Assembly (NCBI GenBank): GCA_000004985.1
Contig: GG738845.1
Origin: Naegleria gruberi
Taxonomy: Eukaryota
Strand: one strand, 5' to 3'
DNA length: 64,000 nucleotides
The translations under genes and the position numbers were made by a program. Shown piece by piece: positions 1 through 39,974 of the stretch (position 1 is the first letter of the stretch; every line of letters begins with the position of its first letter). The notes below the pieces were generated by a model that saw only the letters and a list, made by a program, of their open reading frames with translations, was not told the origin of the DNA and ran no database searches.

Positions 1-3000
1 CAACTTCAAATTTAATCCATTTATTCAGATTTACTGATACCAAGAAACAAAAAGAGTTTATCAAAAAAACTGACGATGAAGTTAATGCAGAAAAGATATT
101 TGAAAGGTATTCTCAACTGAAAGAAAATATTGTCGATACTGTTGTTGGAATGCTAACAAAGGCAAAGGGAAATGTATTGATAGATTATGAAGTAAGAAAA
201 AAACTTTTGGATTTTGTTAAAGACGACACACAACAAAAACACAAATGGGAAAGACTGAAACTTATCTTACAAGCAAGTGGAAAAGTTGAATATTTTAAGG
301 CAATTTTTGAAAACAGACTTACCTATTGTGTTCGTCTTCTCAACCAAGATAACAATTTATCTTCCTCTAATCCTATTGCTACAAATAATGCAATAGAAGA
401 TGGATTACTAAATCCTGGATTTGATATGGAAAGGCCTCAACTCTATCAAATGTATGACTATATAGAAAAGTTTGGTGGTAAAAGTGGATTAAACCACATG
501 GACATTTATCAACATTTTGAAATGACATCCAAAGTGAGTGGCAACCTTTGCAACGATTTGAGGAAAGACTTTGGTGTAACTTCTGTAGCAGAAAAGGGAG
601 AAAAACAGGCTAAATCAACAAGTTATAGATTTTTCGTTCCTTACATTAAAGAAGTAGAAAATGATAAAGCTAATGAAGTCTCTAACAATGAACAGGAATC
701 TCCTCAAAAATCCAAGTCTAGGAAAAAAAAGAAATCTCAACCACCTAAACAATCAACAAATAATTCTCAAGAACAAGTACAACAAGAGGTCCAGTCTGTA
801 TTGCCATCAATTAATTTGGAAGATTCTAGTGATTCTCTTTATGATAGTGATACAGGAAGTGATGACGAAAGTGATGAAAATAAGCCAGCCCTTACTCCAA
901 GCCAATATTTGAGGACAGAAGGAAAGAGAAAAGAAGAAGGATCCAGAAAAGAGGTAATAACTAAAAATTTCTCAGAAAGATGCAAATTGGCTCTTTCCTT
1001 TTTGAAAGAAAAGAAGTGTATTGCCAGATTTCAGTTGAGAGAACATTTTAAACAAAATAATGTTAGTGTGGAAAGCAAAGCTATATCAAGATTGATTCAA
1101 TACTTGGAATCGAATAACCTTGCTAAAAAAATGACTATTGCTGTACCTAGTTTATTTGGAACAACCTCAAAAATGCACATATGTTTAATTGATTGTTCTT
1201 TGGATATGAAATCAAAGACTGTACAGGACTTTATTACAAGTTTATACTCTCATGAAGTACAAGTTAATTCAAAAGAAAAAGTTGATAGAACAATTTTAGA
1301 AAAAGTTGATAGTATCGATCACTTAGAGACTAAAAGGTCTCAAAAAAGATTTTCCTACTTGCCACTCTTTCATTCACTTCTTAATGGCTATATCAATGCA
1401 AAAATGTTGCGAGTTAGGGTATTCCATCAATATCTATGGAATAAGGTGAATGAGGGATCTGTTAATCCTGAGCGTATTTGCCTTTATGATATTTATAGTA
1501 ACATGTCTGTTTCTCTATTTTGTAAGCTTGTTGGTTGTATTGCAGAAATCAGACTTGGTTCAGATGATAAGGAGATTTTACAAACAGTAACAATTTCTAA
1601 TGCGCCAGAAAATATTAAAAAAGCTGTTGATGCATCGGTAGTGGGAAGAAGAGCAGTTGCTCTCTCAAGAGTTGAAACATTTATTGATATAATGGAGAAG
1701 TTGGGATTATTGGTTGTACAGGCTATACGTGATAAAGAGAGCAAATCAAAAGTTTTTTCATTATTGAAAACAGTAGAATTTCCTTTCCCACAACAATTCC
1801 CTGCAACAGAGTACAGACAAGTTACATTTAATTCAATTAATGATGTAGAAGAATATTGGGACGATTTGGAAATGTGTAGTGTAAATATGGAGACTATTAG
1901 ATGTGAGCCAATTGGTGATGATCAAGAAGATAGCCCACAAATTTTTTCAAAGATTCAAGATTTGGGAAAAAGACCTAGTTGGACTGAGTATAGACATTTT
2001 TCTTTGAGGCAACTTCGTATTTTAGAGGCTTCTTATAAGGAGAATCAAACACCAAATTTTGAGGAATGCGACAATATTTGCAAAAAATTGAGAATACCAA
2101 TGGAACAAGTTGTTCTCTATTTTTACAGATATAGAAACTCTATTCTTAGCAAGCGTATTTCAGATATTGGTACTATCCCAGAGGGTCAATCCAAGTCAAA
2201 TACTAAACGTAAAAAGGACGATGATTTTATAGTTGGTGATGACGAAATTGAGTATGAAAGCAATGATGAGAATGTAGAGGTTAGAGCAAAAAAAACAAAG
2301 CGTTTGCCATCTGTTTCATTGTTATTGATTGGAAATAGAAAAACAAGGAAAGGCTCTACCAGAAAGGGCAACAAAAAACAACCTACCGATACTAATGAAA
2401 ACACAGAAAAACAAAAAGAAAAAACGATACCAACAAGAGGGTACAAGTGGACTAATGAGCAAGATCTTTTGCTTTTAGAGGGACTCTCAAGGTTAAGGGA
2501 ATTGGATCCAAGTACTGGTACTTTCCTTACAAAGCCTATAAAATGGCAAGAAATAGCAGATTCTATTGGTGATGGTATAACAGCCAATCGGTGCAAATTG
2601 AGATGGAATAATGTTTTGAGAAAACTTCCATGGTGTAAGAGAGCACTTGAGCTTGCTATTGGTCACAGAGATTTAAATAAGAACAATCCAAATATTCCTC
2701 CCATAGAAATAAGAACGCTTGTACAAACCTGTAGAGATCAGTACAGAATCGGACCTTCTGATTCTAATAATCAATTAATGAGTGTAGATCTTCCTAGAGA
2801 TTTAATCAATATTGTAAAATACTTTAAAGTTATAAGGTTTGAACCACTAGTAGAGGATAATGCAGACGAAAATATCAATATCACTACAGAGAATAGATTG
2901 AGACTCAGTTCTTTGGAAACCCTTTTCAAAATTATTCTACTTACCCCTGATGAACACTATGATGTAAAATTAGCCAACAAACTTGTTAAAAGATTCAAAT

Positions 3001-4553
3001 CAAAGGAAATAGAGGAATGTTTTAACAGTTTAAGAAAGAGATCAATAATATCCAAGTCTAAAAGAGGTCTAAGAATGAAGGGTTACCATCTCAACATTAA
3101 TTTTACAACAAAAACCACCGTGAACTTTTATCCACCAGAAATTTTTGAAGATGCTCCAAAATTCAGAAAAAGAGCGTTAATGATTAATGAGGAGGATGAC
3201 TCTGATGAAGAAGATGATATGGAGGTTAAACCACTATTTAATAGACATGGAGCATGCTTTAATCCTCAAAGCTCTGGTGGTGTAGTAGCAGCTTTAATGA
3301 GTATGGTAATGTTGGAAGAAATTAGGTTAATACCAAGGGTTGCACCACTTTCCGAAGAAGAAAAAAATCAAGTAGGAAGAACTCGTAGTATCCAAGATAT
3401 GGAAGAGGATGACGGAACAGGCGTCAGTAATCATTTACTAAGGGTGGGAGCTGTGAGACCTGGTGAGAATGATCATATTCATGCAGAAGGTACAAACATT
3501 AAAAGTTCACACGGCTCACTACAATTACCAGATTGGACGATAGCTATAGAATCCATCACTGAAGTAAATTTATTTAGTGAGATGGGAGCTGAAAATGAAC
3601 ATCAAACCCACATTTCCAGAATAGTATCTGAGTACGGGCACAAACTCTCTAGTATTGAATTTTCTATTGAACTCCCAGATCAAGAGAATGAGAATAAGAG
3701 AGAAAGAGATGAATTTAACCAAGATAACACCTATGACCCACCTCAAAAGAAAAAGAAACAACACCACATTACTAACTCTGAAATTGAGGCATATTTCGAA
3801 ATGTATGCTGCAGAAAGTAGTTCTATAACAACATTCACCAATGATCAAATAGATTTTGTTGAAAATATTACATATCCAGAGATTAAACCTCTTGCACAAT
3901 ATATTATAGAATCTGGAGTTGAAGAATATTCATTTTGGATAGAAAGGATAATTTTGGTGTATTCATTTATTGGTAATACCAAGTTTGAAGGGGCAAACTT
4001 TGACACTATTTCTCAAAAATTTTCAGATTTTTCTACTGATTATGATCTTTCGATCAAAGAAATATTACAACAATTAGTTAACTTTAATTGTATTGTGGAG
4101 GTAAATTCTGAAAATGAAACAAGATTTTTGAGATTTGAAGAAGCCAAATTGCACACAATACCATACTCAGAAAATGGTGCAACACAATATAGACCAATTT
4201 CAGTCTTCAGACAATTATCAGGAGAGTTAAATGATAACCTTTTACAAAACTTTAAAAAATGTATCATCTCCAGAATTATGAGATATCCTGGTATTTTGGA
4301 AAAAAAGCTTATCAATAGTATTGGTGTTATTTCTGCCCAGGATATAAGAAAAGTATTAGGATTTTTGGAGGATGACCAAATCATTCAATCTAGCTATCAT
4401 AGAGCAACATCTAACGAGAAATTGAAGTGTAAAAATATATTATTCATGCATCAAGATGAGATGGATGACTTGGAAAACAGTGATTGTTACCCTACAGAAT
4501 TTCATAGATCTCTTTTTGTTACCCCAAAATATATTTTCTTCTCTACACAATAA
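1..4553 (+). CDS. Large nuclear protein (>1,500 aa) with one Myb/SANT-like domain; truncated at the 5' end by the window edge. Product unknown; a TFIIIC/SNAPc-like DNA-binding factor is only a guess.
   Basis: The frame of the 150..4553 ORF stays open, with no stop, back to nt 3, so the gene starts upstream of the window. It contains a Myb/SANT-like segment 'RGYKWTNEQDLLLLEGLSRL...WQEIADSIGDGITANRCKLRWNNVLRKL' and K/R-rich and acidic (D/E) low-complexity stretches. The stop is TAA at 4551-4553. Confidence 0.55.
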   Translation, partial: TSNLIHLFRFTDTKKQKEFIKKTDDEVNAEKIFERYSQLKENIVDTVVGMLTKAKGNVLIDYEVRKKLLDFVKDDTQQKHKWERLKLILQASGKVEYFKAIFENRLTYCVRLLNQDNNLSSSNPIATNNAIEDGLLNPGFDMERPQLYQMYDYIEKFGGKSGLNHMDIYQHFEMTSKVSGNLCNDLRKDFGVTSVAEKGEKQAKSTSYRFFVPYIKEVENDKANEVSNNEQESPQKSKSRKKKKSQPPKQSTNNSQEQVQQEVQSVLPSINLEDSSDSLYDSDTGSDDESDENKPALTPSQYLRTEGKRKEEGSRKEVITKNFSERCKLALSFLKEKKCIARFQLREHFKQNNVSVESKAISRLIQYLESNNLAKKMTIAVPSLFGTTSKMHICLIDCSLDMKSKTVQDFITSLYSHEVQVNSKEKVDRTILEKVDSIDHLETKRSQKRFSYLPLFHSLLNGYINAKMLRVRVFHQYLWNKVNEGSVNPERICLYDIYSNMSVSLFCKLVGCIAEIRLGSDDKEILQTVTISNAPENIKKAVDASVVGRRAVALSRVETFIDIMEKLGLLVVQAIRDKESKSKVFSLLKTVEFPFPQQFPATEYRQVTFNSINDVEEYWDDLEMCSVNMETIRCEPIGDDQEDSPQIFSKIQDLGKRPSWTEYRHFSLRQLRILEASYKENQTPNFEECDNICKKLRIPMEQVVLYFYRYRNSILSKRISDIGTIPEGQSKSNTKRKKDDDFIVGDDEIEYESNDENVEVRAKKTKRLPSVSLLLIGNRKTRKGSTRKGNKKQPTDTNENTEKQKEKTIPTRGYKWTNEQDLLLLEGLSRLRELDPSTGTFLTKPIKWQEIADSIGDGITANRCKLRWNNVLRKLPWCKRALELAIGHRDLNKNNPNIPPIEIRTLVQTCRDQYRIGPSDSNNQLMSVDLPRDLINIVKYFKVIRFEPLVEDNADENINITTENRLRLSSLETLFKIILLTPDEHYDVKLANKLVKRFKSKEIEECFNSLRKRSIISKSKRGLRMKGYHLNINFTTKTTVNFYPPEIFEDAPKFRKRALMINEEDDSDEEDDMEVKPLFNRHGACFNPQSSGGVVAALMSMVMLEEIRLIPRVAPLSEEEKNQVGRTRSIQDMEEDDGTGVSNHLLRVGAVRPGENDHIHAEGTNIKSSHGSLQLPDWTIAIESITEVNLFSEMGAENEHQTHISRIVSEYGHKLSSIEFSIELPDQENENKRERDEFNQDNTYDPPQKKKKQHHITNSEIEAYFEMYAAESSSITTFTNDQIDFVENITYPEIKPLAQYIIESGVEEYSFWIERIILVYSFIGNTKFEGANFDTISQKFSDFSTDYDLSIKEILQQLVNFNCIVEVNSENETRFLRFEEAKLHTIPYSENGATQYRPISVFRQLSGELNDNLLQNFKKCIISRIMRYPGILEKKLINSIGVISAQDIRKVLGFLEDDQIIQSSYHRATSNEKLKCKNILFMHQDEMDDLENSDCYPTEFHRSLFVTPKYIFFSTQ

Positions 4554-4566
4554 AGGTTAATAATGT

Positions 4567-6300
4567 TTATTCACTAATGACTATTGAATCAATACAAAAG
4601 AGAGCAGAATTAACATAGGAGGAAAGCAGGCATTGTACTTTAACAGGTATTGGGTCATCCTGATTGAGCTGGAGCAGAACATTTTCCTTGATAAAAGGAA
4701 TTTGGAATGGATCTAATAGCAATAGACGAGCACTTGCAGCATTGATGGATGTATTGATGGTAGTGTATTGTTTTGCATTTGAGTTTTCCATTCCTTCAGT
4801 GCTAAAATCAATAATTGGGTCAATTAAGTCTATGGATGTTGGAGAAAAGTTTACATGAATACGCATTGGAGGACATAAGTACAGCTTTAGGAACCCATTT
4901 TTTGTGTCATCTTGCAGTTTGGAATAAAGTGAAACTTCAATAACAAACTGCTTGGAATTTTCATTTTCTTGGAATGTATTTACATTTTGGAGATCGGTCA
5001 AGTTTGTGGCACACGACAGTTCAGATACAGAGCTCACTGACACAGGTGATGTGAGCTTGGATGGAATGCAAGAGCCATCTTCATCTATTTCATCATCTTG
5101 CTTAGCATTGGTACCTCGTGGAAAATGTCTAACATCTATTTCAAACTTTGACTTGGCATTTTTAAAAGCAATCAAAAACTTGGATTTGAGTTTTGTTGTA
5201 AGATGTTCTTGTAATGCATCATAAAAAGTCTGAGAGGAATTAAATGTTGATGCCAAAAGAACTTGTTTCATAAAATTTTTCATTGGAAATAGATCCTCCT
5301 CATATTTTCTTGATTTGTTTGGTTCCAATGACTGATAAATATCGGTAATTTTCCTCTTATTTGTTTGATTTGTTACGGAAATAAAATCATCAAAAGAAGG
5401 AAACCCAACTTCGGTATGTACAGTTTCACAGAATTGTTTCAGAACGTTCTCATTTTGAGATTTTCCTGAGAGATAGGTTTTTTCGAGATCATCTAGGATT
5501 TTAATATGTTCTAATTGCTTTGTTTTCAAAGTTACAGACAACTTTTCATATATGTGTGCAAGATTCTGTACAATCGTACTTAGTTGTTTTAAAACTTCAA
5601 TCTCTTCTTTAAATCTCCTAATAGGAGAAGTTTTAACTAAATTACTCATTGCTGCAGTTTCGTCCTTATTCTTTTCAAGAAATGCGTTATAATTATTTTG
5701 ATGATCAAAAAAATATTGTTTCAAGTTCTTTGTAATGATTTCTAATTGTTGTACTTTTTTATCCGCATCATTGTATCCTAAAACAGTGATAAACTTGTCT
5801 CTCTTTTCTTTGAATTTTTCCAATAATTGTTTAGCTGTCCCGTAGTCATGTCTTAATCTATCACATTCATGTTTGTTTTTAATTATTCCAATAAATGTGT
5901 CCCAAAATATTTGTGATTCATTAACTGGTTGTTGTGGTGTTTGTGTAGATTGTTGGCTATTTGATTGTTGTGTATTATTCTTCGGAGTCTGATTTGATTG
6001 TTGCTGTTGTATAGTGTGCTGATTTTGTTGAACAGTTGTTTCTTGTTGTGGAGGTTGCTGTGGACGATAGTGCTGCTCTGCATGATATGGAATATTTTGT
6101 AACTCTTGGATAAATACTTGTTTTGTTGGTGATGTGTTCCAAGCTTGAGTAACAAAATAAAGAGCAATCTGGTCCACAGTCTCCTTGGGAAATTTAGGAT
6201 TATTCTTGAAGAATTCGTGATTGGAGACAAGGGAAGTGGTGTAGGTAACAAATTTTTCTTGCTCTTCGGGGCGTACTTCACTGTGCCAAGGTTGAGACAT
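4567..6300 (-). CDS. KIX-like domain plus Q-rich protein; Mediator subunit Med15-like (tentative)
   Basis: The ORF-track start at 6306 is GTG; the first ATG is at 6300 ('MSQPWHSEV...'). The N-terminus 'PWHSEVRPEEQEKFVTYTTSLV...KETVDQIALYFVTQAW' resembles the three-helix KIX domain (compare CBP 'GWHEHVTQDLRSHLVHKLVQAI'). It is followed by a poly-Q/Q-rich tract, which is the Med15 architecture. Confidence 0.4.
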   Translation of the reverse strand: MSQPWHSEVRPEEQEKFVTYTTSLVSNHEFFKNNPKFPKETVDQIALYFVTQAWNTSPTKQVFIQELQNIPYHAEQHYRPQQPPQQETTVQQNQHTIQQQQSNQTPKNNTQQSNSQQSTQTPQQPVNESQIFWDTFIGIIKNKHECDRLRHDYGTAKQLLEKFKEKRDKFITVLGYNDADKKVQQLEIITKNLKQYFFDHQNNYNAFLEKNKDETAAMSNLVKTSPIRRFKEEIEVLKQLSTIVQNLAHIYEKLSVTLKTKQLEHIKILDDLEKTYLSGKSQNENVLKQFCETVHTEVGFPSFDDFISVTNQTNKRKITDIYQSLEPNKSRKYEEDLFPMKNFMKQVLLASTFNSSQTFYDALQEHLTTKLKSKFLIAFKNAKSKFEIDVRHFPRGTNAKQDDEIDEDGSCIPSKLTSPVSVSSVSELSCATNLTDLQNVNTFQENENSKQFVIEVSLYSKLQDDTKNGFLKLYLCPPMRIHVNFSPTSIDLIDPIIDFSTEGMENSNAKQYTTINTSINAASARLLLLDPFQIPFIKENVLLQLNQDDPIPVKVQCLLSSYVNSALFCIDSIVISE

Positions 6301-6402
6301 TTTCACAAGATGTCTTTTGAAGTATTTTTTTATTTTTGAAATTCTTTAAATAACCATTGTTCCCGCCAAATTCTACAATTAATAATTTTTAAAAAAAACA
6401 AC

Positions 6403-8770
6403 ATGAGCAACATTGGTGTGGCACGATCGTCTATAAATCTTGTTAGTCCTCTCACTCTATCTTCCCCTATCAATATTGGTGGTCCACAACTGGAAAGAGA
6501 TCAAAAACACTTCCCATTTTCAAGGAGTACCATGGATTTAAAAGAAGTGGAACGAAATAATAAGGATTTAGTTGTACCCTCAAACCGAACAGATGACCCT
6601 TTCAAGGATTTTCCTGCAACTACCGATGTATTATCATGCAAAACCAAAGTGAATGAATTAGAAGTACAAATAGAATATCTTAAAGACATAGGTATGTTTT
6701 ATTTAGTATTAAAACTGTTAATCAAAATTAAATAGTTCAAAGGTTGAGTGACGAAATGGCTAGGTATCAGGTAAAATATCCGCCAATTGTTTCAAGTGAT
6801 TCCGAAGGAGCTTGTTCTACGTTAATTGCTCCATGGTTTTACAACTCCCAACACATGAACCCTCTTCTTGTATCATACGATCACAGAATCATGGAATTAA
6901 CAAACGAAATTAAACTCTATAAGGAAAAAATTGAAACAATGACAATTGAAGTAAAAGCAGTGTCATCAGAAAATGAAGATCTTCAACATAGTTTGAAAAA
7001 TATGATTGAAAAACATCTGTCAAAACCCAATGAGCCAGGGTCTTCGATTCCTTTCAACATTCCTACTGAAGAATGGGACGAACTTCAACAGAGAGTTGAA
7101 CTATTAGACAGAGAAAACAAGTTGTTATTGGAGGAGCAAAGAGAGCTTCAAAATGAAATTGATCGATTGAGAAACGAAAATAGAAGACCATATGTTGAGT
7201 CATCATTATCTTCGACAGATTCTGATAGAACTCGTTTAATGCTGGAAAGTGCAAAAAAAAAAATTTCATCCTTGCAAAGAGAAAAAGAAGATTACCAAAG
7301 AGAGATTAAAAGGGCTAGGCATTTGGAATCTGTTGTTGGTGATTTAGAAAGAGCACTAAGTTCCAGTAATCAGAGATGTAAATTGTTGGATGAAGAATTA
7401 GAAAAACATAAATGCTTGATAGACGACTTGAATCATGAAAGAAAGCGATTTTTCCAAACAGAAAAAACCATCAATTACAAGGATATAGAGATGACAGGTT
7501 TGTTATTTACTTTCTTAATATTAGTTACAATTTGAAAGAACTTCGTGACAAGTTGACAATAGCACTCAGGGAAGGAGATGAAATAAGGGAAGAAAAAAAT
7601 AAGATTTTACATGAAATAAGCCAAATGGAGCAGAGAATAGTTGCTTACCAACAGAGTGAATTTGAAGCTTTACAAAAAGTGAAGGAAACTATGGAGTTAC
7701 TTGAAACAACAAAACTAGAAAGAGATACTGCTAGAACAGCTATAAAGAACAAAGAACAGGAAATTGAAAGGTTAGAAGAAAAGAATAAGAAGCTTTCTAA
7801 TGACTATTCTGAAAGGTTTAAAAAATTGTCTTCACATTTTCAAGAAAAACACAAGGAATCACTCCAAGCTTTGGAAGATCAACTAAAAATATTACAAATA
7901 GAGAATGGCCATTTAAAATCAGATGTAGACAGGTTAAAAAGAGAGAAAAAGTTAGTATTATTTTAAATATTATTCAAACACAATATTAGAACAACTGAGA
8001 ATGAGTTGACCAAGGTAATTAAGGCTGCCGAGACTGAGCAATTAAATTCACCATTTGTTGTTAATGATTTAAACCAACAGATTAACCATTTAACTAATGA
8101 GAGAGATGAATCAGAGAGGATGTACGAAAGATTAAGAAACTCTCATAGAAGAGCTCAACAACAATGGGAGCAGGAGCGAGAACAATTGAATGCAAGATAT
8201 CTTGAGTTACAAAAAAGAGTTTCATCAATTGAATCAGAATCCGAGGAACAAAGACAAAACAACATAAGATTAAACGAACAAATCAATAGACTTGAGCAAC
8301 AATGCCAAAATGTTAAGTTTGAAAAAGAAGAGGTTGAAAGATCATTGAAAGACTCGATACGAACCCAACAAGAACTTTCATCTCATGATACAAGAGATCT
8401 AAGGAAAAAGCTTGCTCTAACTTTAGAGGAATATAACAGAGCAGAAAACTCATTACACCAACTCAATATGAGACATCAAAAAGAACAATTGCAGTGGAGA
8501 GAAGAGTTTAGTAAGTTTAAGGAAAAAAAGGATAAGGAAGTACACGATTTGACATCAATTGTTGAGCAATTAACAAGAAGAAACCAAGAAATGGAGGGTA
8601 AAATCAAACTCCTTTTAAAGAAAGAAGAAGAACTTCTTAATCAAAAGAAAGACCTTCATATCAGAGCTGACAAGTTAACAATATATCTGGAGAGAATGAA
8701 AAGAGAAAGAGATATGCTCGCAAAACACATGGAAGGGAAGATTACAGATATTAGTTTTGGTTTTGAGTAG
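6403..8770 (+). CDS. Coiled-coil protein of about 700 aa, four exons, function unknown
   Basis: Exons are 6403..6691, 6736..7497, 7539..7950 and 7990..8770, joined by 39-45 nt GT-AG introns (donors gtatgt, gtttgt, gttagt). The joins keep the frames of the four ORF-track segments. The protein is heptad-rich and E/K/R/L/Q-rich ('ELQNEIDRLRNENRR', 'LERDTARTAIKNKEQEIERLEEKNKKL'). No specific family was recognised. Confidence 0.5.
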
Positions 8771-9369: not shown

Positions 9370-12300
9370 ATGTCTTCCCAAACCTTGAACGTGCAGGCTC
9401 TGTCAGAACAAACGAAGGAGGAAAGCCCTATGAAATCCTTTCCAAGGTTTAGACCATTTCTCAAAAGTGAAGTAGAGAGTTCAGGAGACGATAAGCCAAA
9501 ATGTTGTGCTGCATTTCATAAGGTAGGTTGAGATTGTTTGAGTGTTGTTTAAAAATCCGAAAGAATGGAAAAAATATTTTGATAAAACATGGTGTTTCGT
9601 CGAATGTTGAATTTACTTTTGACAAAGTGTTGAAAACAACCAATACACAAGAAGATGTATATAATAGTTGTGGAGATGATATTATGAAACATATATTAAA
9701 GGGCCATAACTGTACATTATTTGCACTTGGGGCCCACCAATCCGGTACGTATCATTCATTTTAAAACTTAACTTTCTAATACACATACGAAACAGGTAAA
9801 ACATATACCCTTTTTGGTAACGTAGCAAAATCAGCTAATTGGGCAACTGAACTGGAAAATCAAAAATTTGATGGTATTGCTCCTCGTTTTATAAGAGCTG
9901 TTTTTGATTTTATTATGAATCAAAGCCCAGAAAATATAGAATTCTCAGTTTCTCTTAATGCATTCGAAATTTGTGGATTGGAAAATGGCAATGACGCCTT
10001 AATGAATGATTTATTAGCTAATACCTCGACACCTCCAAAATTAGACGTACTCGTTGAGGAGGAAACTAATGCTGTGGAAATTGTTGGACTTCAGGAGGTT
10101 TTTGTTACAAGTGATAGTGAATTGTTTGAAAATATTTCTGGTGCACTAATGAAAAGATCTAAAAGTAAGTATTTAAAACTTCATTATATTATATATTTGT
10201 ATAGAATTTAGCACAGCATTCTTTGAAATTAAATTTGTACAACATGACACTTCAACTAACTTGACAAAGGAAGGAAGATTGTGCATTATTGATTTGGATT
10301 CTGAACGCTCCAGTGATCAATATAGGAATACCAGAAAGACTGGATGTAAAGTTTTTCAAGAGGTAGCAGAATCTCTCTACACGGAAGTTGAGGATTATGA
10401 CTATTTCAGTACAACTCTAAAATGCCTTGTATTTTCTAGAGTTTTTGTGAATACAGCCACATTTTCCTTTGTGACTTTATCTCCAATGATATCGGTAGTA
10501 GAAGACCAAACCATTCCATATTTACAACTGGCATCCAAGATTTGTGAACTCTCTAGTGATGTCATGGTAAATTATGTACAAGATCCTATTGTTGAAACTC
10601 CACAAGAAGAAGAAAAATCAATCCCTACTCCGCATCCAGTAGCTTCTGTGCAAGCTAATGCCAAGGTAGAGGCTGTACAACAGGAAGAACTAGCCAAACC
10701 AATTGGCAACCCTACTTCCCTGCCTACCACAAATGAAAAAAAAGAAATTCCAACAATCCTTGACATTCCACCGAAACCAACTCAATCAATCACTGATGTA
10801 ACGAAATCTGAGGAATATATGCAAATTTTGAAGGAAAAAATTAACATTGAAGAGGATATATTACTCCTACGCACACAATTCAATTCGCTTAAGGATCAAC
10901 TTGAACGTGAAGAAGAAAAAGCTAGTAAGTTTGAAAAAGAAGCCTCTTTAAAAGATAGTGCCACTAAAGAGCTTGCAAAACAATTGAAAGAAAGCTTTGC
11001 ACTCACAGAACAACTTCAAAAAGAAAGAGACCGCTACGAAGAGCAAGTCAAAGCATCTCAAAATGACATTCAACAGTTGAAAGAGAAATTGATTCATGAA
11101 GAATCTATTAGGGATGAACTAAATGAAAAGGCTCACGAACAAGAAAAAACACTAGCAAATTATAGGTCATCAGAGGAGCAAATGACTATTCAGATTACTC
11201 AACTTAAAAAAGAGTTACAAGAATTTAAACAATCTTCCAACACTAATCATGGAAGTATCCCGACTCCTCTAAAAAACAAAGGAGAAGAACTAGAAAAGGA
11301 AGTAGTATTGCTCATAAAAAGCCAACATGAAGAATTGAAAAATGCATATAACGAACTCTCAATCAAAATTGTTGAACTTGAAAAGAAGAACATTTATCTG
11401 GAAGAAGAACTTGTAGATGCTGAAAAGAAAGCACTTGAAGCTGATGACCCATCCCACCAATTAATTGAAAAGCTAAAATCAAAGAACAAACTGTTATTAG
11501 AACAGTTGAACCTGTCAAAGAGAGAAAATTTAAAATCTCGTGAGAAATCAGTAGAAATTAACATGAAACTTATTGAACAAAAAATTCAAGAATATCAGCA
11601 GTTAGTAAATCAATCATCAACAGTGTTACCAACTCCACTTAACGATACAACAGTCACTGTAAATAATGAAGATTTGGAACCAATATCTCCACAAGAAAAA
11701 CTCAATGTTCAAAAGTTGAAAGAAAAGGTTACAGATCTTACCAACAAACTTACTACAGCTCGTAAGAAAGCAACAGAAACTGAAATTGCAAGAATGAAAT
11801 GGCAAGAAGGTGAAAAGGCGACACGACAAAAAATCTCTGATTTGGAAAATGAGATTGAAGAGCTCAAACAAAAAATGACGGCAAAAGAATCATCCTTAAA
11901 AGAAGAAATTGATCAATTACAAAAAGAAATCAATAGCTGGAGAGAAACTGACCAAAAGATCAAGTCTGAATTGAAAAAAATTGAAAAGGAAAAACAAAGC
12001 TTGGAACAAGTTATCAAAAAGGAAAATGTTAACAGAAAAAAGAGTGTAATGGTTATGCATCAAGTACAACAAGTTCAAGAAAGTAATAATTTGATTTTGA
12101 GAAATGAGTTAGCTCAAGCTAGAGAGAGAATTGAATATTTGGAGCGTGAACTAAAAAAAATCGGTGGACCAGGTATGAAAATATCATCCAGATCTCAAAC
12201 AATCTCCCCATCATCACGCAGTCCTATGACTCCAACTAGTGAATCTTCCTCACAAAGTCTCCCAACAACAGCTCCTAAAAAACTGGATGACAATTCCCAG

Positions 12301-20622: not shown

Positions 20623-20961
20623 ATGTCCATCAGACACCACGCAGACCTAATCCTTTGCCGCAAACAACCTGGTATTGCCATAGGCAAACTTTGCAAAAAT
20701 TGTGATGGAAAATGTGTCATTTGTGATTCCACTGTAAGACCACAAACAAAAGTACACATTTGTGAGGAATGTAACTATGGAAGTTTACAAGGAAAATGTA
20801 TTATTTGTGGAGGAAAGGGGGTTTCCGATGCCTATTACTGCAAATCTTGTGTTTTACAAGAGAAGGACAGGGATGGATGCCCAAGAGTAATTAATGTCAG
20901 TCAAGCTAGAACAGATTTACATTTTGAAAAGAAGAAATATGTACAAGGGTCTAATCTATAG
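20623..20961 (+). CDS. PHF5A: PHF5A/Rds3 (SF3b complex 14 kDa zinc-finger subunit)
   Basis: 112-aa product '[80 protein letters not shown]'. It is near-identical in its cysteine pattern and overall sequence to human PHF5A. Confidence 0.92.
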
Positions 20962-20962
20962 A

Positions 20963-21718
20963 TTAATCGAATCTTCTTGACATTTTAGATTGTGGTGTTG
21001 ACAGTGTATTATTGGAAGGAGGAATAGTCACCGAAGGAGCATTATTACCAACTACTGTATTTTGTTGTAAAGTGGGTGGATTTGAATTAGTTGCTCCCAT
21101 TTTCAATGAGTTTATCATTTCTGGAGGAATAAAATCCATTAGTCTTGAATTATTTACCAAATTATAAGCAGCATCATCTTGTAAATCTCTTTCCTGTTGA
21201 ATAGTATTTCCCATTTTTGCAAGAGTTTCTTTCAACATATTACTAAATTCAACAACCATACTTTGCATTTTCTGTTTTTGTTCTTCAATTTCTCTTTGTT
21301 TTAATTCAATAATTTGATCTTTTTCCTTCTTAACTTCATGAAGAGCAACTTTAGCAAGATGTAACTGATCTGCTAAAGAGGTATTCTTTTGCTCACTCGT
21401 ATTTAATTTTTCAATTAAAGTTTTTTGCAGAGCTTTGTATTGTCTAATCATGTCCGAGGCAATATGAAATCTTTCCATCTTTTCCTTTTCAAAATCTTCA
21501 TCCAATTGAGATAATTTTGACTTCATTTCCATCTCGGAGGCTCTTGCCTTTTGCGTTTGTTCAGATCTTAATACCATATACCTTTCTAACGTTTCAATGC
21601 GTAGTTTTAATTTTTTAATTTCCTCCTTTTGTTCCTGTATTAAGTCAGCATCTGTTTTCTCTCCAGGTTTGCTGTTTTTGTTTCCCTTTTGATTTTTGCT
21701 AGGTGTTTTAGAAGACAT
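20963..21718 (-). CDS. Coiled-coil protein resembling CCDC153/DRC12 (axonemal dynein regulatory complex); tentative
   Basis: 251 aa with ATG at 21718. It has a K/N-rich N-terminus followed by a coiled coil. Segments 'QKARASEMEMKSKLSQLDEDFE' and 'IASDMIRQYKALQ' parallel human CCDC153 '[22 protein letters not shown]' and 'IYAEMSRQCQALQ'. Its stop codon lies 1 nt from the PHF5A stop, in convergent orientation. Confidence 0.4.
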   Translation of the reverse strand: MSSKTPSKNQKGNKNSKPGEKTDADLIQEQKEEIKKLKLRIETLERYMVLRSEQTQKARASEMEMKSKLSQLDEDFEKEKMERFHIASDMIRQYKALQKTLIEKLNTSEQKNTSLADQLHLAKVALHEVKKEKDQIIELKQREIEEQKQKMQSMVVEFSNMLKETLAKMGNTIQQERDLQDDAAYNLVNNSRLMDFIPPEMINSLKMGATNSNPPTLQQNTVVGNNAPSVTIPPSNNTLSTPQSKMSRRFD

Positions 21719-21858
21719 TGTTTGAAATCAATTTTTTTGAAAGAAGTGATTGAACAATAAAAATAAAGGCGGGAGAGATACCAGGACAGTTTGTAGAGTC
21801 AGTTTAAAATTCTGTTACATTTTTGGCGGGAACATAACTACAACAACAAAGAAAAAAA

Positions 21859-23385
21859 ATGACGGAAATACAATCAAAGGGTTCTGAACAGTCTTCAAAG
21901 ACAATAATGTTCAATGTTTGTAAGAATGAGTACGGAACACCTAAAAACAACTTACAAAAGCTCTATAAAAAACTAAGGATGGAATATAAAACGATAATGT
22001 AAGTGATGATGACAATACAATTTCTAAAGAGTCCTGCAAATAGCAATGAAGAGGATTTTAACCTTGAAAAATTAAAACAAGCGGATTTGGTAATATTTTG
22101 TGGCCCTAGGTTGAAGTTTACAGAGCAAGAGGTACGTAAATTAATTTGGAATTTTCATACCCAACAATTGTAGTTTGCTGCCATAGGACAATATATTAAA
22201 GAGGGAGGAAGCGTGCTATTCCAATTAGGAGAGGGAGGTGAACCAAGATTTGAAACTAATATTAACTATCTTTTAGAAGAATGGGGTGTTTTCATTAATT
22301 CCGATACTGTGATCAGAACATCCTTCTTTAAATATTACCATCCAAAGGAAGTTTGTGTACAAAAGGGTGTGCTTAACAGATCAATTAATAGAGAGGCTGG
22401 TAAAGGAAACGATCTTGGTAGTGATTTATCAGATCCAAACTCTCACCTTACATTCGTTTATCCATATGGAGCCACTTTAAATGTTGAAAGTCCATCAACT
22501 GCCATTCTTGCTTCTGGGCATATTTCATATCCTGTTAATAGACCTGTATGTGCCTTTTATTCCTCCAAAAATGACAAAGGGAGAGTAGCTGTTATTGGAA
22601 GTGTTCATTTATTTGATGATAAGTGGCTGGAAAAAGAGGAAAACTCAGTTCTTCAAGATGTAATTTTCAAATGGCTGTTGTTTGGATTTGATTTGAATCA
22701 GATTGATGCAACTTCACCAGAAGTTAATGATTATCAATTCCTTCCTGATTCCAAATCACTTTCTGAAAAGGTTAAACCATGTCTACAGGAGAGCGAGGAG
22801 CTGCCCATTGATTTTACAGAATTGTTTGTGGACAAGATGTTTAAATTTGATACTGATTTGATACCTGAGGCTGTTAATTTATATGCTCAACTTGGTGTGA
22901 AACATTCACCTCTTACTTTGATTCCACCTGCTTTTGAAACTCCATTGCCGAGTTTAAGACCTGCAGTTTATCCTCCTTCACTTCGAGAATTTGCCCCTCC
23001 AGAAATTGACCTTTTTGATTTGGATGAACAATTTGCCTCTGAAGATGTTCGTTTGGCTCAACTCACTAACAGATGTACAGATGAGGATGCTGATTATTTT
23101 ATTCAGAAGGCTGGAGAAATTGTTGGTGTTACCAAATTATTGAAATCTGAATATTCTTTCAGTGCAAAACATATTCTTGAATTAATGTTTAGACAGATAG
23201 TGCAATTCAAGAAGGTTAATCCAAGTAATGAAGACATTTTGCCATCACATTTGAGGCACAATAAGGTTCTTCCAAAGTTGGCAAAAAATATTGAAACCAT
23301 ATCAAACCCTGTAACAAATCCTCCAACACCAATTTCTTCTCCACTCAGAGGAGGAAATTTGAGTGATGATGAATATGTAGATTAA
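21859..23385 (+). CDS. IFT52: Intraflagellar transport protein 52 (IFT-B core)
   Basis: Exons are 21859..21998, 22044..22131 and 22174..23385, with introns of 45 and 42 nt (donors gtaagt, gtacgt). The product 'TIMFNVCKNEYGTP...LVIFCGPRLKFTEQEFAAIGQYIKEGGSVLFQLGEGGEPRFETNINYLLEEWGVFINSDTVIRTSFFKYYHPKEVCVQKGVLNRSINREAGK' is collinear with human IFT52 ('...LWITAGPREKFTAAEF..VFVMLGEGGESRFDTNINFLLEEYGIMVNNDAVVRNVYHKYFHPKEALVSSGVLNREISRAAGK') and with the later 'PAVYPPSLREFAPPEIDLFDLDEQFASE' block. Confidence 0.9.
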
Positions 23386-38361: not shown

Positions 38362-38671
38362 TTTTTTAATTATTTAATCTATTATTATTATTAATACTTG
38401 GCGAGAGAATGATTGAGTGTTATTTCACTTTCAAATAAAATAATTCATTACAAAGATTGGTTAAATTCTCTCCATTGTCAAAATCTTTGAAATCTTTAAT
38501 AACGTCCAACACATTCCAAACATTATGATAAACAAAGTCACAATATTCTGGTATTAAAAACCAATTTTCCGTTTTCAACCTTGTCTGATTGATAATTAAC
38601 AGTGTTTGATGTTCTCCTTTGCGCCAAAAATTTCCCTCCCTTTTTCTATTTAAAAATAATTTCTAAATAAA

Positions 38672-39477
38672 ATGCCAAAACCTAAAAGCTCAACTGCCCT
38701 TACTCAACTTAACGTTCTTGATGAAGTTAAGGAAGAGAAGGCCATCGATCGGATTTTAAAAATTATTGATAATGCACCTAGTTTAGGATACATAAACAAA
38801 ACGCAATTCTATACAATGGTTCACTTTTTGGAAAAGGAAGCTTCTGTAAAGGATAAGCAGCTAAAACTAAAAGTGGAGGAAACAAAAGCATGCAGAGAAA
38901 TAATACAAAAATTAAAGAACAATTTAAAACAAAATGAAACTGACATTAAAATGATTAATAATAACAGATCGAGGATTCAAATTGCGATAGAAATGTTAAA
39001 AGTAAAAACAGAAGAAATACGGAGGGAAAGCGACGTTGTCATGGAATCAATTCTTGATTATCGTAGAGTAAGTGTTTGAATATCAAACAGTATGACAAAA
39101 GCAAATATTAGAATATTTTGGATTTGGAAAACTATTCAAAACAACAAGCAGAATTTATCAAGGAAACTCAAAAAGAGACTAAAAATTATATTAAAACCAA
39201 TCAAGAACTTGATCAAATTAAGAATACAGCACTAAAGGAACGATTCATCAAGGCAGTAAGTTGAATTATTTTCTCTAACCTAATTGTTTCAAAGAATGAA
39301 AAGGAAAAGTCCCTCAACAGATTTCTAAGACATATCACAATAGTGAGAAAGAACCTAACGCATGACCCTTATCAATTCTTTGGCTCCGATCAATCGGAAA
39401 GAGATGACATTGTTTTTGGTAATAATTTTGGAGCTAATGCAAAGGAAAAATTCAAGAGAAGGAATTCTGTCTATTGA
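38672..39477 (+). CDS. Small coiled-coil protein (about 241 aa), three exons, unknown function
   Basis: Exons are 38672..39067, 39112..39255 and 39295..39477, with 44-nt and 39-nt GT-AG introns (both gtaagt). The spliced product continues in frame: '...ESILDYRR|NILDLENYSKQQAEFIKE...RFIKA|NEKEKSLNRF...KRRNSVY*'. Confidence 0.45.
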
Positions 39478-39974
39478 TCAATATTATATTCTTCAAATTA
39501 TAGACCAACTTCACTCTTCAATGTGATTTGTAATTGAAATTAAAGAACGAGATACTCTACAACTCAGGTTTTAATTTTTCATAAGGTTGGAATACGAAGA
39601 AAAGCAATTCTTTTTTCAGAACTTGTAAAGTCAGGCAATTCCCGCCAGTTCTTGTTTATTAATTCTAAAAAAAAATTTCCAACAACACAATTTGCACCTG
39701 CCTGGCTGGTAAACTATCAACCAATTTGTTATTAAACAAGAGGAGGAAAATTCATCAACAATACACCAATTAAAAAAACAATAGTTGTGTGGTCCATCAA
39801 TAATTTAACATCATCCAAAGGCCACTAAACAGCAGGATACTTTTTCAAAAATTCTACCATAGTATTCATCATTATTATTTGGTGTAAAATTTTCTTGCAA
39901 AAAAACAGATCGGATCTTGCACGCTAATTTTACATAGTAAAAATATAACAAGTTTTATCAGTAAATATTAGAAA

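What the first reader, a model, noticed from the sequence alone, without database searches (positions are those of the whole stretch)
20963..23385. Divergent pair of flagellar genes (IFT52 and a CCDC153/DRC12-like coiled-coil gene) with start codons 140 bp apart
The IFT52 start codon is at 21859 on the plus strand. The start codon of the DRC12-like axonemal coiled-coil gene is at 21718 on the minus strand. The two genes are head to head and the shared upstream region is only 140 bp and AT-rich. If the organism is a Naegleria-like amoeboflagellate, flagellar genes are induced together during differentiation, and a compact bidirectional promoter would be a simple way to co-regulate these two. 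Apart from the inferred organism biology, the observation is that two cilium-associated genes are paired this way.
Basis: partly seen in the sequence, partly recalled or inferred. Interest (0 to 1): 0.5.

Follow-up and report, generated by a model that had tools for sequence, protein, structure and literature searches.

The report
Naegleria IFT52–DRC12 head-to-head gene pair
Two flagellar genes of Naegleria gruberi do sit head to head 140 bp apart, but the pairing is a recent and ordinary accident of a compact genome; the more interesting point is that each gene, and a third basal-body gene nearby, has its own E2F-type DNA box just upstream, and that box is conserved in related amoebae.

Summary
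The window is Naegleria gruberi. IFT52 (NAEGRDRAFT_77715) starts at 21859 (+). A genuine DRC12/CCDC153 orthologue (NAEGRDRAFT_45024) starts at 21718 (-). The spacer is exactly 140 bp.

The idea of a bidirectional promoter selected for co-regulation is not supported:
- Seven head-to-head pairs in this window have spacers of 87-592 bp, so 140 bp is ordinary.
- In five other heteroloboseans the two genes are never neighbours.
- The spacer is the junction of two conserved blocks, CDC73-PHF5A-DRC12 and IFT52-TPI-RIC1. It therefore looks like a rearrangement in the N. gruberi lineage.

The spacer holds two of the window's four GGCGGGA boxes, which match the E2F consensus, one next to each gene.
- The IFT52 box (TTTGGCGGGAAC, -34) recurs at -30 to -38 upstream of IFT52 in three other species, where IFT52 has different neighbours.
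- The identical 12-mer lies 36 bp upstream of a CEP89 homologue at 6403. E2F-type boxes are present upstream of CEP89 in all four species examined.
- The DRC12 box is conserved in only one other species.

Most likely these are two abutting promoters co-regulated in trans. E2F involvement is inferred, not shown. No gene-level expression data could be reached.

The parts
20963..21718 (-). DRC12 / CCDC153 orthologue (NAEGRDRAFT_45024). Single exon, 251 aa, coiled coil with a low-complexity C-terminal extension.
   Evidence: ORF. It is 100% identical to XP_002683437, which UniRef names DRC12. It hits Tetrahymena CCDC153 (8th8_S/8tid) at E 2e-16 alone and 3.5e-41 with a profile. No Pfam model matches.
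21719..21858 (.). 140-bp spacer between the two start codons. It is the junction of two conserved synteny blocks.
   Evidence: 31% G+C.
21765..21777 (+). E2F-consensus-like box A, AAAGGCGGGAGAG (core GGCGGGA at 21768-21774). It lies 50-56 bp from the DRC12 ATG and reads TCTCCCGCCTTT in DRC12 orientation.
   Evidence: A TCCCGCC box in the same orientation lies at -86 of DRC12 in the metagenomic Naegleria sp. (L009-L011). N. fowleri has only a near-consensus site at -160. There is none in N. lovaniensis, Willaertia or Acrasis.
21822..21833 (+). E2F-consensus box B, TTTGGCGGGAAC, 34 bp upstream of the IFT52 ATG.
   Evidence: It is conserved at -34 in N. fowleri (GTGGCGGGAAAT), at about -38 in Naegleria sp. 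(TTTGGCGGCAAAA) and at -30 in Acrasis (TTTTTGGCGCCAG). It is absent in Willaertia.
21859..23385 (+). IFT52 (NAEGRDRAFT_77715), 479 aa. Exons 21859-21998, 22044-22131 and 22174-23385; introns of 45 and 42 nt.
   Evidence: Pfam IFT52_GIFT 8e-94, IFT52_central 3e-34 and Itf52_C 2e-20. The annotated protein is P0029, and the orthologue alignment supports its model.
6359..6370 (-). A second copy of the identical 12-mer TTTGGCGGGAAC. It lies in a 102-bp head-to-head spacer, 36 bp upstream of the CEP89-homologue ATG (6403) and about 60 bp from the ATG (6300) of a Q-rich gene on the other strand.
6403..8770 (+). CEP89 homologue (centriole distal-appendage protein family). Coiled coil of about 750 aa; approximate exons 6403-6691, 6736-7501, 7525-7950 and 7990-8770.
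   Evidence: Gene model. It is 74% identical to N. lovaniensis P0149 and 57% to Willaertia P0150. The N. lovaniensis (P0149), Willaertia (P0150) and N. fowleri (P0303) proteins all carry the precomputed Pfam PF28159:CEP89. E2F-type boxes are upstream in all four species.
38621..38628 (-). Canonical TTTGGCGC box about 45-51 bp upstream of NAEGRDRAFT_61256 (38672-39478, a 240-aa coiled-coil protein of unknown function).
   Evidence: There is no Pfam or PDB match for the protein.
39640..39646 (-). Fourth GGCGGGA of the window (CTGGCGGGAATTG on the minus strand). It lies between NAEGRDRAFT_61256 and the exportin-7 gene (39975+). No target gene is assigned.

Best explanation
The pair is real, but it is a lineage-specific juxtaposition and not a conserved regulatory unit. 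In the N. gruberi lineage a rearrangement joined two older synteny blocks, CDC73-PHF5A-DRC12 and IFT52-TPI-RIC1, head to head. The result was a spacer of a size that is normal for this compact genome. Each gene appears to have brought its own short proximal promoter. The 140 bp contain two E2F-consensus boxes 57 bp apart, one 34 bp from the IFT52 ATG and one 50-56 bp from the DRC12 ATG. The same kind of box sits 30-90 bp upstream of IFT52 and of the basal-body gene CEP89 in other heteroloboseans, whatever the neighbouring gene is.

The most likely mechanism is therefore co-regulation in trans. The two genes, CEP89 and probably other cilium genes would share a promoter-proximal element recognised by one factor, most plausibly a member of the E2F/DP family, which N. 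gruberi encodes. Adjacency would not be required.

Shown: gene identities, coordinates, ordinary spacing, lack of synteny conservation, and motif enrichment and conservation. Inferred: that the boxes are functional, that E2F/DP binds them, and that the two genes are co-induced. Co-induction is taken from the general literature on mass induction of flagellar genes, not from data on these genes.
For: Identity.

Ordinary spacing: head-to-head spacers in the window are 87-592 bp.

No conservation of the pairing:
- N. lovaniensis has HSP20-like | DRC12-PHF5-CDC73.
- N. fowleri has the same arrangement, with IFT52 on another contig behind TauE.
- Willaertia has tRNA-Arg and C2/syntaxin | DRC12-PHF5-CDC73, and elsewhere a 263-aa ORF > IFT52-TPI-RIC1.
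- The metagenomic Naegleria sp. has TauE-IFT52-TPI-RIC1, with DRC12-...-CDC73 on a separate contig.
- In Acrasis both genes have unrelated neighbours.

Motif:
- GGCGGGA occurs 4 times against 0.43 expected, two of them in the spacer. The exact 12-mer occurs twice against 0.11 expected.
- Strict E2F sites (TTTSSCGC or GGCGGGA) within 150 bp upstream of the ATG are found in 9 of 13 IFT52/DRC12/CEP89 promoters against 3 of 69 other genes (Fisher 4.6e-7). After adding N. fowleri DRC12 and CEP89 the counts are 10 of 15 against 3 of 77.
- 11 of the 22 sites in 191.6 kb fall in the 2.08 kb upstream of these genes.
- For CEP89 the conserved block AACAATT-TTSSCGCCAAA aligns between N. gruberi, N. fowleri and Willaertia, while the flanks have diverged.

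A trans factor exists: NgruE2F, NgruDEL and NgruRB sequences are in the supplement of Medina et al. 2016.

Context: RFX, FOXJ1 and XAP5 are absent from Naegleria and its cilium transcription factors are unknown (PMC12183034). Basal-body and flagellar genes are induced transcriptionally en masse during differentiation (PMC4819266).
Against: - The sample is small: three gene families in four to six related species.
- CEP89 was recognised because of the motif, so the N. gruberi copy is ascertainment-biased. Its three orthologous promoters are the independent test.
- Orthologous promoters are not statistically independent, and the motif set was fixed after the first hits had been seen.
- The DRC12 box is weakly conserved, with 2 of 6 species strict. 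Willaertia IFT52 has no box.
- Three IFT52 loci from unidentified metagenomic eukaryotes have no strict site.
- Some sites lie next to genes of unknown or non-ciliary function: NAEGRDRAFT_61256, a Willaertia 585-aa coiled-coil gene, and the Q-rich gene that shares the CEP89 spacer.
- No transcription start sites, binding data or expression data for these genes were available.
- In N. gruberi both boxes lie within 113 bp of both start codons, so real sharing of elements by the two genes is not excluded.
Confidence: 0.6

Rival explanations
1. One reading: the 140-bp spacer is one shared bidirectional promoter, and the head-to-head arrangement is maintained because it co-regulates the two flagellar genes.
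For: Both genes are cilium genes. The spacer is short, and both E2F-type boxes lie within 113 bp of both start codons, so each could act in both directions in N. gruberi.
Against: The arrangement is absent from five other heteroloboseans, and the spacer is exactly the breakpoint between two conserved blocks. The spacing is ordinary for the window. The IFT52 box keeps its distance to IFT52 in species with other neighbours. The same box serves CEP89 15 kb away.
Confidence: 0.15
2. Pure coincidence with no shared regulation. The adjacency is chance, and the G+C-rich boxes are either non-functional or a generic promoter element unrelated to cilia.
For: My own estimate is that a handful of adjacent cilium-gene pairs are expected by chance genome-wide. 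E2F-type sites also occur next to genes with no known ciliary role. DRC12 orthologues mostly lack the box.
Against: The boxes are strongly concentrated in 1.1% of the sequence examined. They are positionally conserved in diverged promoters of IFT52 and CEP89. Only 3 of 77 other promoters have one.
Confidence: 0.2
3. The boxes are functional cis-elements of a cilium/basal-body regulon, but a factor other than E2F/DP reads them. The match to the E2F consensus would then be coincidental.
For: Only sequence resemblance links the box to E2F, and no binding data exist. The Naegleria cilium transcription factors are unknown.
Against: The sites collectively reproduce the textbook E2F site TTTGGCGGGAAA / TTTGGCGCCAAA, including the palindromic forms. 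N. gruberi encodes E2F, DEL and RB.
Confidence: 0.2

Closest known systems
Vertebrate multiciliogenesis programme (E2F4/E2F5-DP1 with MCIDAS or GEMC1)
   Same: E2F-type sites close to the start of genes needed to build basal bodies and cilia, in a cell that makes basal bodies outside the normal centriole duplication cycle (review PMC12183034). Naegleria also builds basal bodies de novo (PMC4819266).
   Different: From my own knowledge, the known E2F4/5 targets in vertebrates are mainly centriole-amplification genes and downstream transcription factors (FOXJ1, RFX), not IFT or N-DRC genes. Also from my own knowledge, MCIDAS and GEMC1 are restricted to animals. Nothing here shows that E2F binds or regulates in Naegleria.
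RFX / X-box cilium regulon of animals and choanoflagellates
   Same: A short promoter-proximal motif shared by dispersed cilium genes, including IFT genes, makes them a regulon without any need for gene clustering.
   Different: The motif and transcription-factor family are different. RFX and FOXJ1 are absent from Naegleria.
Bidirectional (divergent) promoters of compact or CpG-island genomes
   Same: Two genes head to head with less than 1 kb, here 140 bp, between them. From my own knowledge, E2F-type sites are among the motifs enriched in mammalian bidirectional promoters.
   Different: Conserved bidirectional pairs keep their arrangement across species. This one does not, and each box tracks its own gene.
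DRC12/CCDC153 of the Tetrahymena nexin-dynein regulatory complex (PDB 8TH8/8TID; Ghanaeian et al. 2023, PMC10504270)
   Same: Full-length sequence similarity (profile E 3.5e-41) and a short coiled-coil protein.
   Different: The N. gruberi protein is 251 aa, against about 190-210 aa for most family members, because of a low-complexity C-terminal tail. Its location in the axoneme is untested.

Membership tests
IFT52 (IFT-B core subunit) | GIFT domain, central domain and C-terminal domain in that order | tested here: met
   Pfam PF23355 8e-94, PF23352 3e-34 and PF21178 2e-20, all above the curated cut-offs. The protein is 48-60% identical to proteins named IFT52 by their sources (cnidarians, molluscs, vertebrates, chytrid fungi).
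DRC12 / CCDC153 | Sequence homology over the full length to the CCDC153 placed in the N-DRC by cryo-EM and cross-linking | tested here: met
   phmmer E 2.1e-16 (residues 14-176 against 4-164 of 8th8_S). The family profile gives E 3.5e-41 over 1-188 against 1-181, and the next hit is at 4e-4. The definition of DRC12 is in PMC10504270.
DRC12 / CCDC153 | Present in ciliated lineages and absent from non-ciliated ones | tested here: inconclusive
   There are 632 representative clusters at E<=1e-10. Named hits and sampled members are Naegleria, Willaertia, Acrasis, Andalucia, Stygiella, Euglena longa and the chytrids Rhizoclosmatium and Polychytrium. Absence from non-ciliated taxa was not systematically tested. 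No direct comparison with human CCDC153 was possible.
DRC12 / CCDC153 | Localisation in the N-DRC linker of the axoneme | not testable with these tools
   This needs proteomics, tagging or cryo-ET of Naegleria flagella.
Conserved bidirectional promoter pair | Divergent genes with less than 1 kb between their starts | tested here: met
   140 bp between the ATGs.
Conserved bidirectional promoter pair | The arrangement is retained in related species | tested here: not met
   The genes are not adjacent in N. fowleri, N. lovaniensis, Naegleria sp., Willaertia or Acrasis.
Conserved bidirectional promoter pair | Correlated expression of the two genes | not tested
   The expression tables of Fritz-Laylin & Cande 2010 and Kennard et al. 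2025 are not held.
E2F-regulated promoter | A consensus E2F site (TTTSSCGC or GGCGGGAA) close to the gene start | tested here: met
   TTTGGCGGGAAC at -34 of IFT52, GGCGGGA at -50/-56 of DRC12, and TTTGGCGGGAAC at -36 of CEP89.
E2F-regulated promoter | The site is conserved in orthologous promoters | tested here: met
   IFT52 in 4 of 5 species, CEP89 in 4 of 4, and DRC12 in only 2 of 6. The feature is met for IFT52 and CEP89 and weak for DRC12.
E2F-regulated promoter | The organism encodes E2F/DP and a pocket protein | tested here: met
   NgruE2F, NgruDEL and NgruRB sequences are listed in the supplementary files of Medina et al. 2016. DP was not seen explicitly.
E2F-regulated promoter | E2F binding and E2F-dependent transcription | not testable with these tools
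   This needs EMSA or DAP-seq, CUT&RUN and reporter mutagenesis.
CEP89 (centriole distal appendage protein) | Match to the Pfam CEP89 model | tested here: inconclusive
   The orthologues P0149, P0150 and P0303 carry the precomputed PF28159:CEP89. The local Pfam copy has no such model and gives no significant hit. The window protein is 74% identical to P0149.

The most novel reading that the evidence does not exclude
An E2F/DP-type promoter-proximal box (consensus TTTGGCGGGAAA / TTTGGCGCCAAA) is the cis-element of the cilium and basal-body gene programme of Naegleria and other Heterolobosea. These lineages lack RFX, FOXJ1 and XAP5, and their cilium transcription factors are unknown. If so, the link between E2F and ciliogenesis seen in vertebrate multiciliated cells is either ancient or has arisen twice.
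Probability: 0.3. Interest if true: 0.75.

Novelty: new member of a known kind. Interest (0 to 1): 0.4.

Why it matters
The gene pair as reported is ordinary. Both genes are already annotated, and their adjacency is a recent rearrangement in a genome where genes are 100-600 bp apart. The spacer led to something more useful: a sharply defined, rare box of E2F type. It sits at a fixed short distance upstream of IFT52 and CEP89 in several heteroloboseans, and upstream of DRC12 in two Naegleria species. How Naegleria switches on hundreds of flagellar and basal-body genes within an hour is an open question, because the known cilium transcription factors are missing from its genome (PMC12183034). 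The box gives a concrete candidate that can be tested cheaply with the public genome and RNA-seq data alone.

Tried and rejected
- Pfam gives no family for the DRC12 protein or for 14 of its relatives. Identification rests on the PDB hit and on the names given by the sources.
- My first IFT52 model, with a 33-nt first intron, was wrong by four residues. The annotated 45-nt intron fits the orthologues.
- I first guessed that the 6403 gene was SCLT1-like. The orthologues' Pfam label says CEP89.
- Gene-level expression data could not be reached. Fritz-Laylin & Cande 2010 (PMC2987438) and Kennard 2025 (PMC11753955) are not held, and the preprint has no held supplements. A search for the gene id found nothing.
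- The literature searched reports no promoter motif for Naegleria flagellar genes and no E2F link in Naegleria.
- NAEGRDRAFT_61256 and the Willaertia 585-aa gene, both with E2F boxes, could not be identified by Pfam or PDB.
- A metagenome scan for further IFT52 loci gave three loci from unidentified eukaryotes without a strict E2F site upstream. The box is therefore not universal for IFT52.
- A CDE/CHR-type reading of the TTTGAA repeats near the DRC12 ATG was considered and dropped, because TTTGAA is too common in an AT-rich spacer.
- The bacterial promoter and terminator scan was not used because it does not apply to a eukaryote.
Full report
**What is there.** The window is Naegleria gruberi. 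The minus-strand ORF 20963..21718 is 100% identical to XP_002683437 (NAEGRDRAFT_45024). The neighbouring TPI and PHF5A ORFs are also exact N. gruberi proteins, and all lie on a 1.56-Mb scaffold. The plus-strand gene that starts at 21859 is IFT52. All three IFT52 Pfam domains match strongly. The annotated protein NAEGRDRAFT_77715 (479 aa) corresponds to exons 21859-21998, 22044-22131 and 22174-23385. My first model, with a 33-nt intron, was four residues too long; the orthologue alignment favours the annotated 45-nt intron. The two ATGs are at 21718 (-) and 21859 (+), and the spacer 21719..21858 is exactly 140 bp.

**Is the minus-strand gene DRC12/CCDC153?** Pfam has no model that matches it.
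- It hits the Tetrahymena 'coiled-coil domain-containing protein 153' chain of the N-DRC structures 8TH8/8TID at E 2e-16.
- A profile of 15 relatives hits that chain at 3.5e-41 over its full length. The next hit, at 4e-4, is generic coiled coil.
- That Tetrahymena protein is the one defined as DRC12 by cross-linking, BioID and cryo-EM density (PMC10504270).
- An exhaustive profile search finds 632 cluster representatives at E<=1e-10, mostly 190-210 aa.
- The named hits and sampled members come from Naegleria, Willaertia, Acrasis, Andalucia, Stygiella, Euglena longa and two chytrid fungi. This is consistent with a family of flagellated lineages.

**Is the arrangement special?** It is not special by spacing. 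With confident start codons, the seven head-to-head pairs in the window have 87, 102, 140, 263, 310, 502 and 592 bp between ATGs, and other intergenic gaps are 1-150 bp. At 31% G+C the spacer is one of the least AT-rich intergenic stretches measured; most of the others are 11-27% and one is 34%.

It is not special by conservation either.
- The block DRC12-PHF5A-CDC73 is kept in N. lovaniensis, N. fowleri, Willaertia magna and a metagenomic Naegleria sp..
- The block IFT52-TPI-RIC1 is kept in Willaertia and the metagenomic Naegleria sp.. It is partly rearranged in N. fowleri.
- In none of these species, nor in Acrasis kona, are DRC12 and IFT52 neighbours. In N. fowleri and N. lovaniensis they lie on different large contigs.
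- The upstream neighbour of IFT52 is TauE in N. fowleri and in Naegleria sp. The upstream neighbour of DRC12 is an HSP20-like gene in N. fowleri and N. lovaniensis.

The 140-bp spacer is therefore the junction of two older synteny blocks, created in the N. gruberi lineage. A genome-wide expectation of a few such pairs by chance is my own rough estimate, from about 400 cilium genes among about 16,000.

**What the spacer contains.** GGCGGGA occurs four times in the 64-kb window against 0.43 expected from shuffles, and two copies lie in this spacer, at 21768 and 21825.

*IFT52.*
- The IFT52-proximal copy is TTTGGCGGGAAC, a textbook E2F site, 34 bp from the ATG.
- N. fowleri has GTGGCGGGAAAT at -34, and it is the only GGCGGGA in 13.5 kb.
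- The metagenomic Naegleria sp. has TTTGGCGGCAAAA at about -38.
- Acrasis has TTTTTGGCGCCAG at -30.
- Willaertia has none.

In those species the upstream neighbour is different, so the box belongs to IFT52.

*DRC12.*
- The DRC12-proximal copy reads TCTCCCGCCTTT in gene orientation, 50-56 bp from the ATG.
- It has a counterpart in the same orientation in the metagenomic Naegleria sp., at -86.
- N. fowleri has only a near-consensus site, ATTGGCGCC, at -160.
- N. lovaniensis, Willaertia and Acrasis have nothing convincing.

*CEP89.* The third window copy is the identical 12-mer (expected 0.11 even with one mismatch). It lies in another 102-bp head-to-head spacer, 36 bp upstream of a multi-exon coiled-coil gene at 6403-8770. 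The orthologues of that gene in N. lovaniensis, N. fowleri and Willaertia carry the Pfam label CEP89, a centriole distal-appendage protein family. All four CEP89 promoters have E2F-type boxes:
- TTCCCGCCAAA in N. gruberi;
- TTTTCCCGCCAAA in N. fowleri, the only site in 8.4 kb;
- the perfect palindrome TTTGGCGCCAAA in N. lovaniensis;
- TTTCCCGC plus TTTGGCGCGCAAA in Willaertia.

A block AACAATT-TTSSCGCCAAA aligns across three of them, while the flanks have diverged.

*The remaining window sites.* One further canonical site (TTTGGCGC on the minus strand, 38621-38628) and the fourth GGCGGGA copy (39640-39646) flank NAEGRDRAFT_61256, an unidentified 240-aa coiled-coil gene.

**Counts.** The E2F definitions, taken from general knowledge, are TTTSSCGC or GGCGGGA on either strand.
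- 9 of 13 IFT52/DRC12/CEP89 promoters have a site within 150 bp of the ATG, against 3 of 69 other genes in the same loci (Fisher 4.6e-7).
- After adding two N. fowleri loci the counts are 10 of 15 against 3 of 77.
- 11 of the 22 sites in 191.6 kb lie in the 2.08 kb upstream of these three genes.

Caveats apply. The motif set was fixed after the first hits had been seen. The N. gruberi CEP89 gene was noticed because of the motif. Orthologous promoters are not independent. Only three gene families were examined. Three IFT52 loci from unidentified metagenomic eukaryotes have no strict site.

**How it most likely works.** The 140 bp are best read as two short gene-proximal promoters set back to back by a rearrangement, each with its own E2F-type box. 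Co-regulation would come from a common trans-acting factor acting on dispersed genes, as in a regulon, rather than from sharing a promoter.
- N. gruberi encodes E2F, an E2F7/8-like DEL protein and RB (supplement of Medina et al. 2016).
- RFX, FOXJ1 and XAP5 are absent from Naegleria, and its cilium transcription factors are unknown (PMC12183034).
- Basal-body and flagellar genes are induced transcriptionally en masse during the one-hour differentiation, and amoebae have no centrioles (PMC4819266).

Whether an E2F would act as an activator at differentiation, or as a repressor released when growth stops, cannot be said. Because both boxes are within 113 bp of both ATGs, some real sharing in N. 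gruberi is not excluded. Binding, function of the boxes and co-induction of these particular genes are all inferred. The expression tables could not be reached.

**Verdict.** The reading as a 'compact bidirectional promoter' is not supported as an evolved device. The finding as given is ordinary: annotated genes, normal spacing, a lineage-specific adjacency. The E2F-type box conserved upstream of cilium and basal-body genes in Heterolobosea is a modestly supported lead that can be tested directly, and it accounts for most of the interest score.

Noticed in passing
window 20959-20965: The stop codons of PHF5A (+, ends at 20961) and DRC12 (-, ends at 20963) are 1 bp apart, so their 3' UTRs must overlap. 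In N. lovaniensis, N. fowleri and Willaertia the gap is about 120-150 bp. N. gruberi DRC12 has about 25 extra low-complexity C-terminal residues that fill that gap, which suggests a lost stop codon.
   Followed up: partly
window 6403-8770: The protein search returned no N. gruberi entry for the CEP89 homologue, only N. lovaniensis, Willaertia and one transcriptome. The gene may be missing or split in the N. gruberi annotation, or it may have been lost in the 8000-candidate limit. My model needs introns of 44, 23 and 39 nt, and the 23-nt intron is doubtful.
   Followed up: partly
window 38621-38628 and 39640-39646: E2F-type boxes lie on both sides of NAEGRDRAFT_61256 (38672-39478), a 240-aa coiled-coil protein with no Pfam or PDB match. 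If the box marks cilium genes, this is a candidate new one.
   Followed up: partly
L002 3552, 4095 and 11882 (Willaertia magna): Two near-perfect TTGGCGGGAAA boxes lie in or next to a 1.2-kb stretch with no called gene (2820-4078). A TTTTTGGCGCCAA box lies 46 bp upstream of an unidentified 585-aa coiled-coil gene at 11928.
   Followed up: partly
L002 5780-5852: In Willaertia a tRNA-Arg(TCT) gene sits in the intergenic region just upstream of DRC12.
   Followed up: yes
window 21838-21846 and 6373-6379; L004 about 5985-5993; L009 about 75-95: A CTACAA/CTACGA element recurs between the E2F-type box and the ATG in several of these promoters: N. gruberi and N. fowleri IFT52, N. gruberi CEP89, and DRC12 of three Naegleria species. 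It may be an initiator-like element. It is short enough to be chance in AT-rich DNA.
   Followed up: no
window 21999-22043, 22132-22173, 6692-6735, 39068-39111: Introns in this window are very short (42-45 nt), with GTAAGT, GTACGT or GTATGT donors.
   Followed up: partly
L003 and L006 (Acrasis kona): Acrasis kona encodes both IFT52 and DRC12. As far as I recall it has no described flagellate stage.
   Followed up: no
L013 2766-2779: A run of N masks part of the N. fowleri region upstream of DRC12, about 225-235 bp from the ATG. Absence of a strict E2F site further upstream there is therefore not fully established.
   Followed up: no
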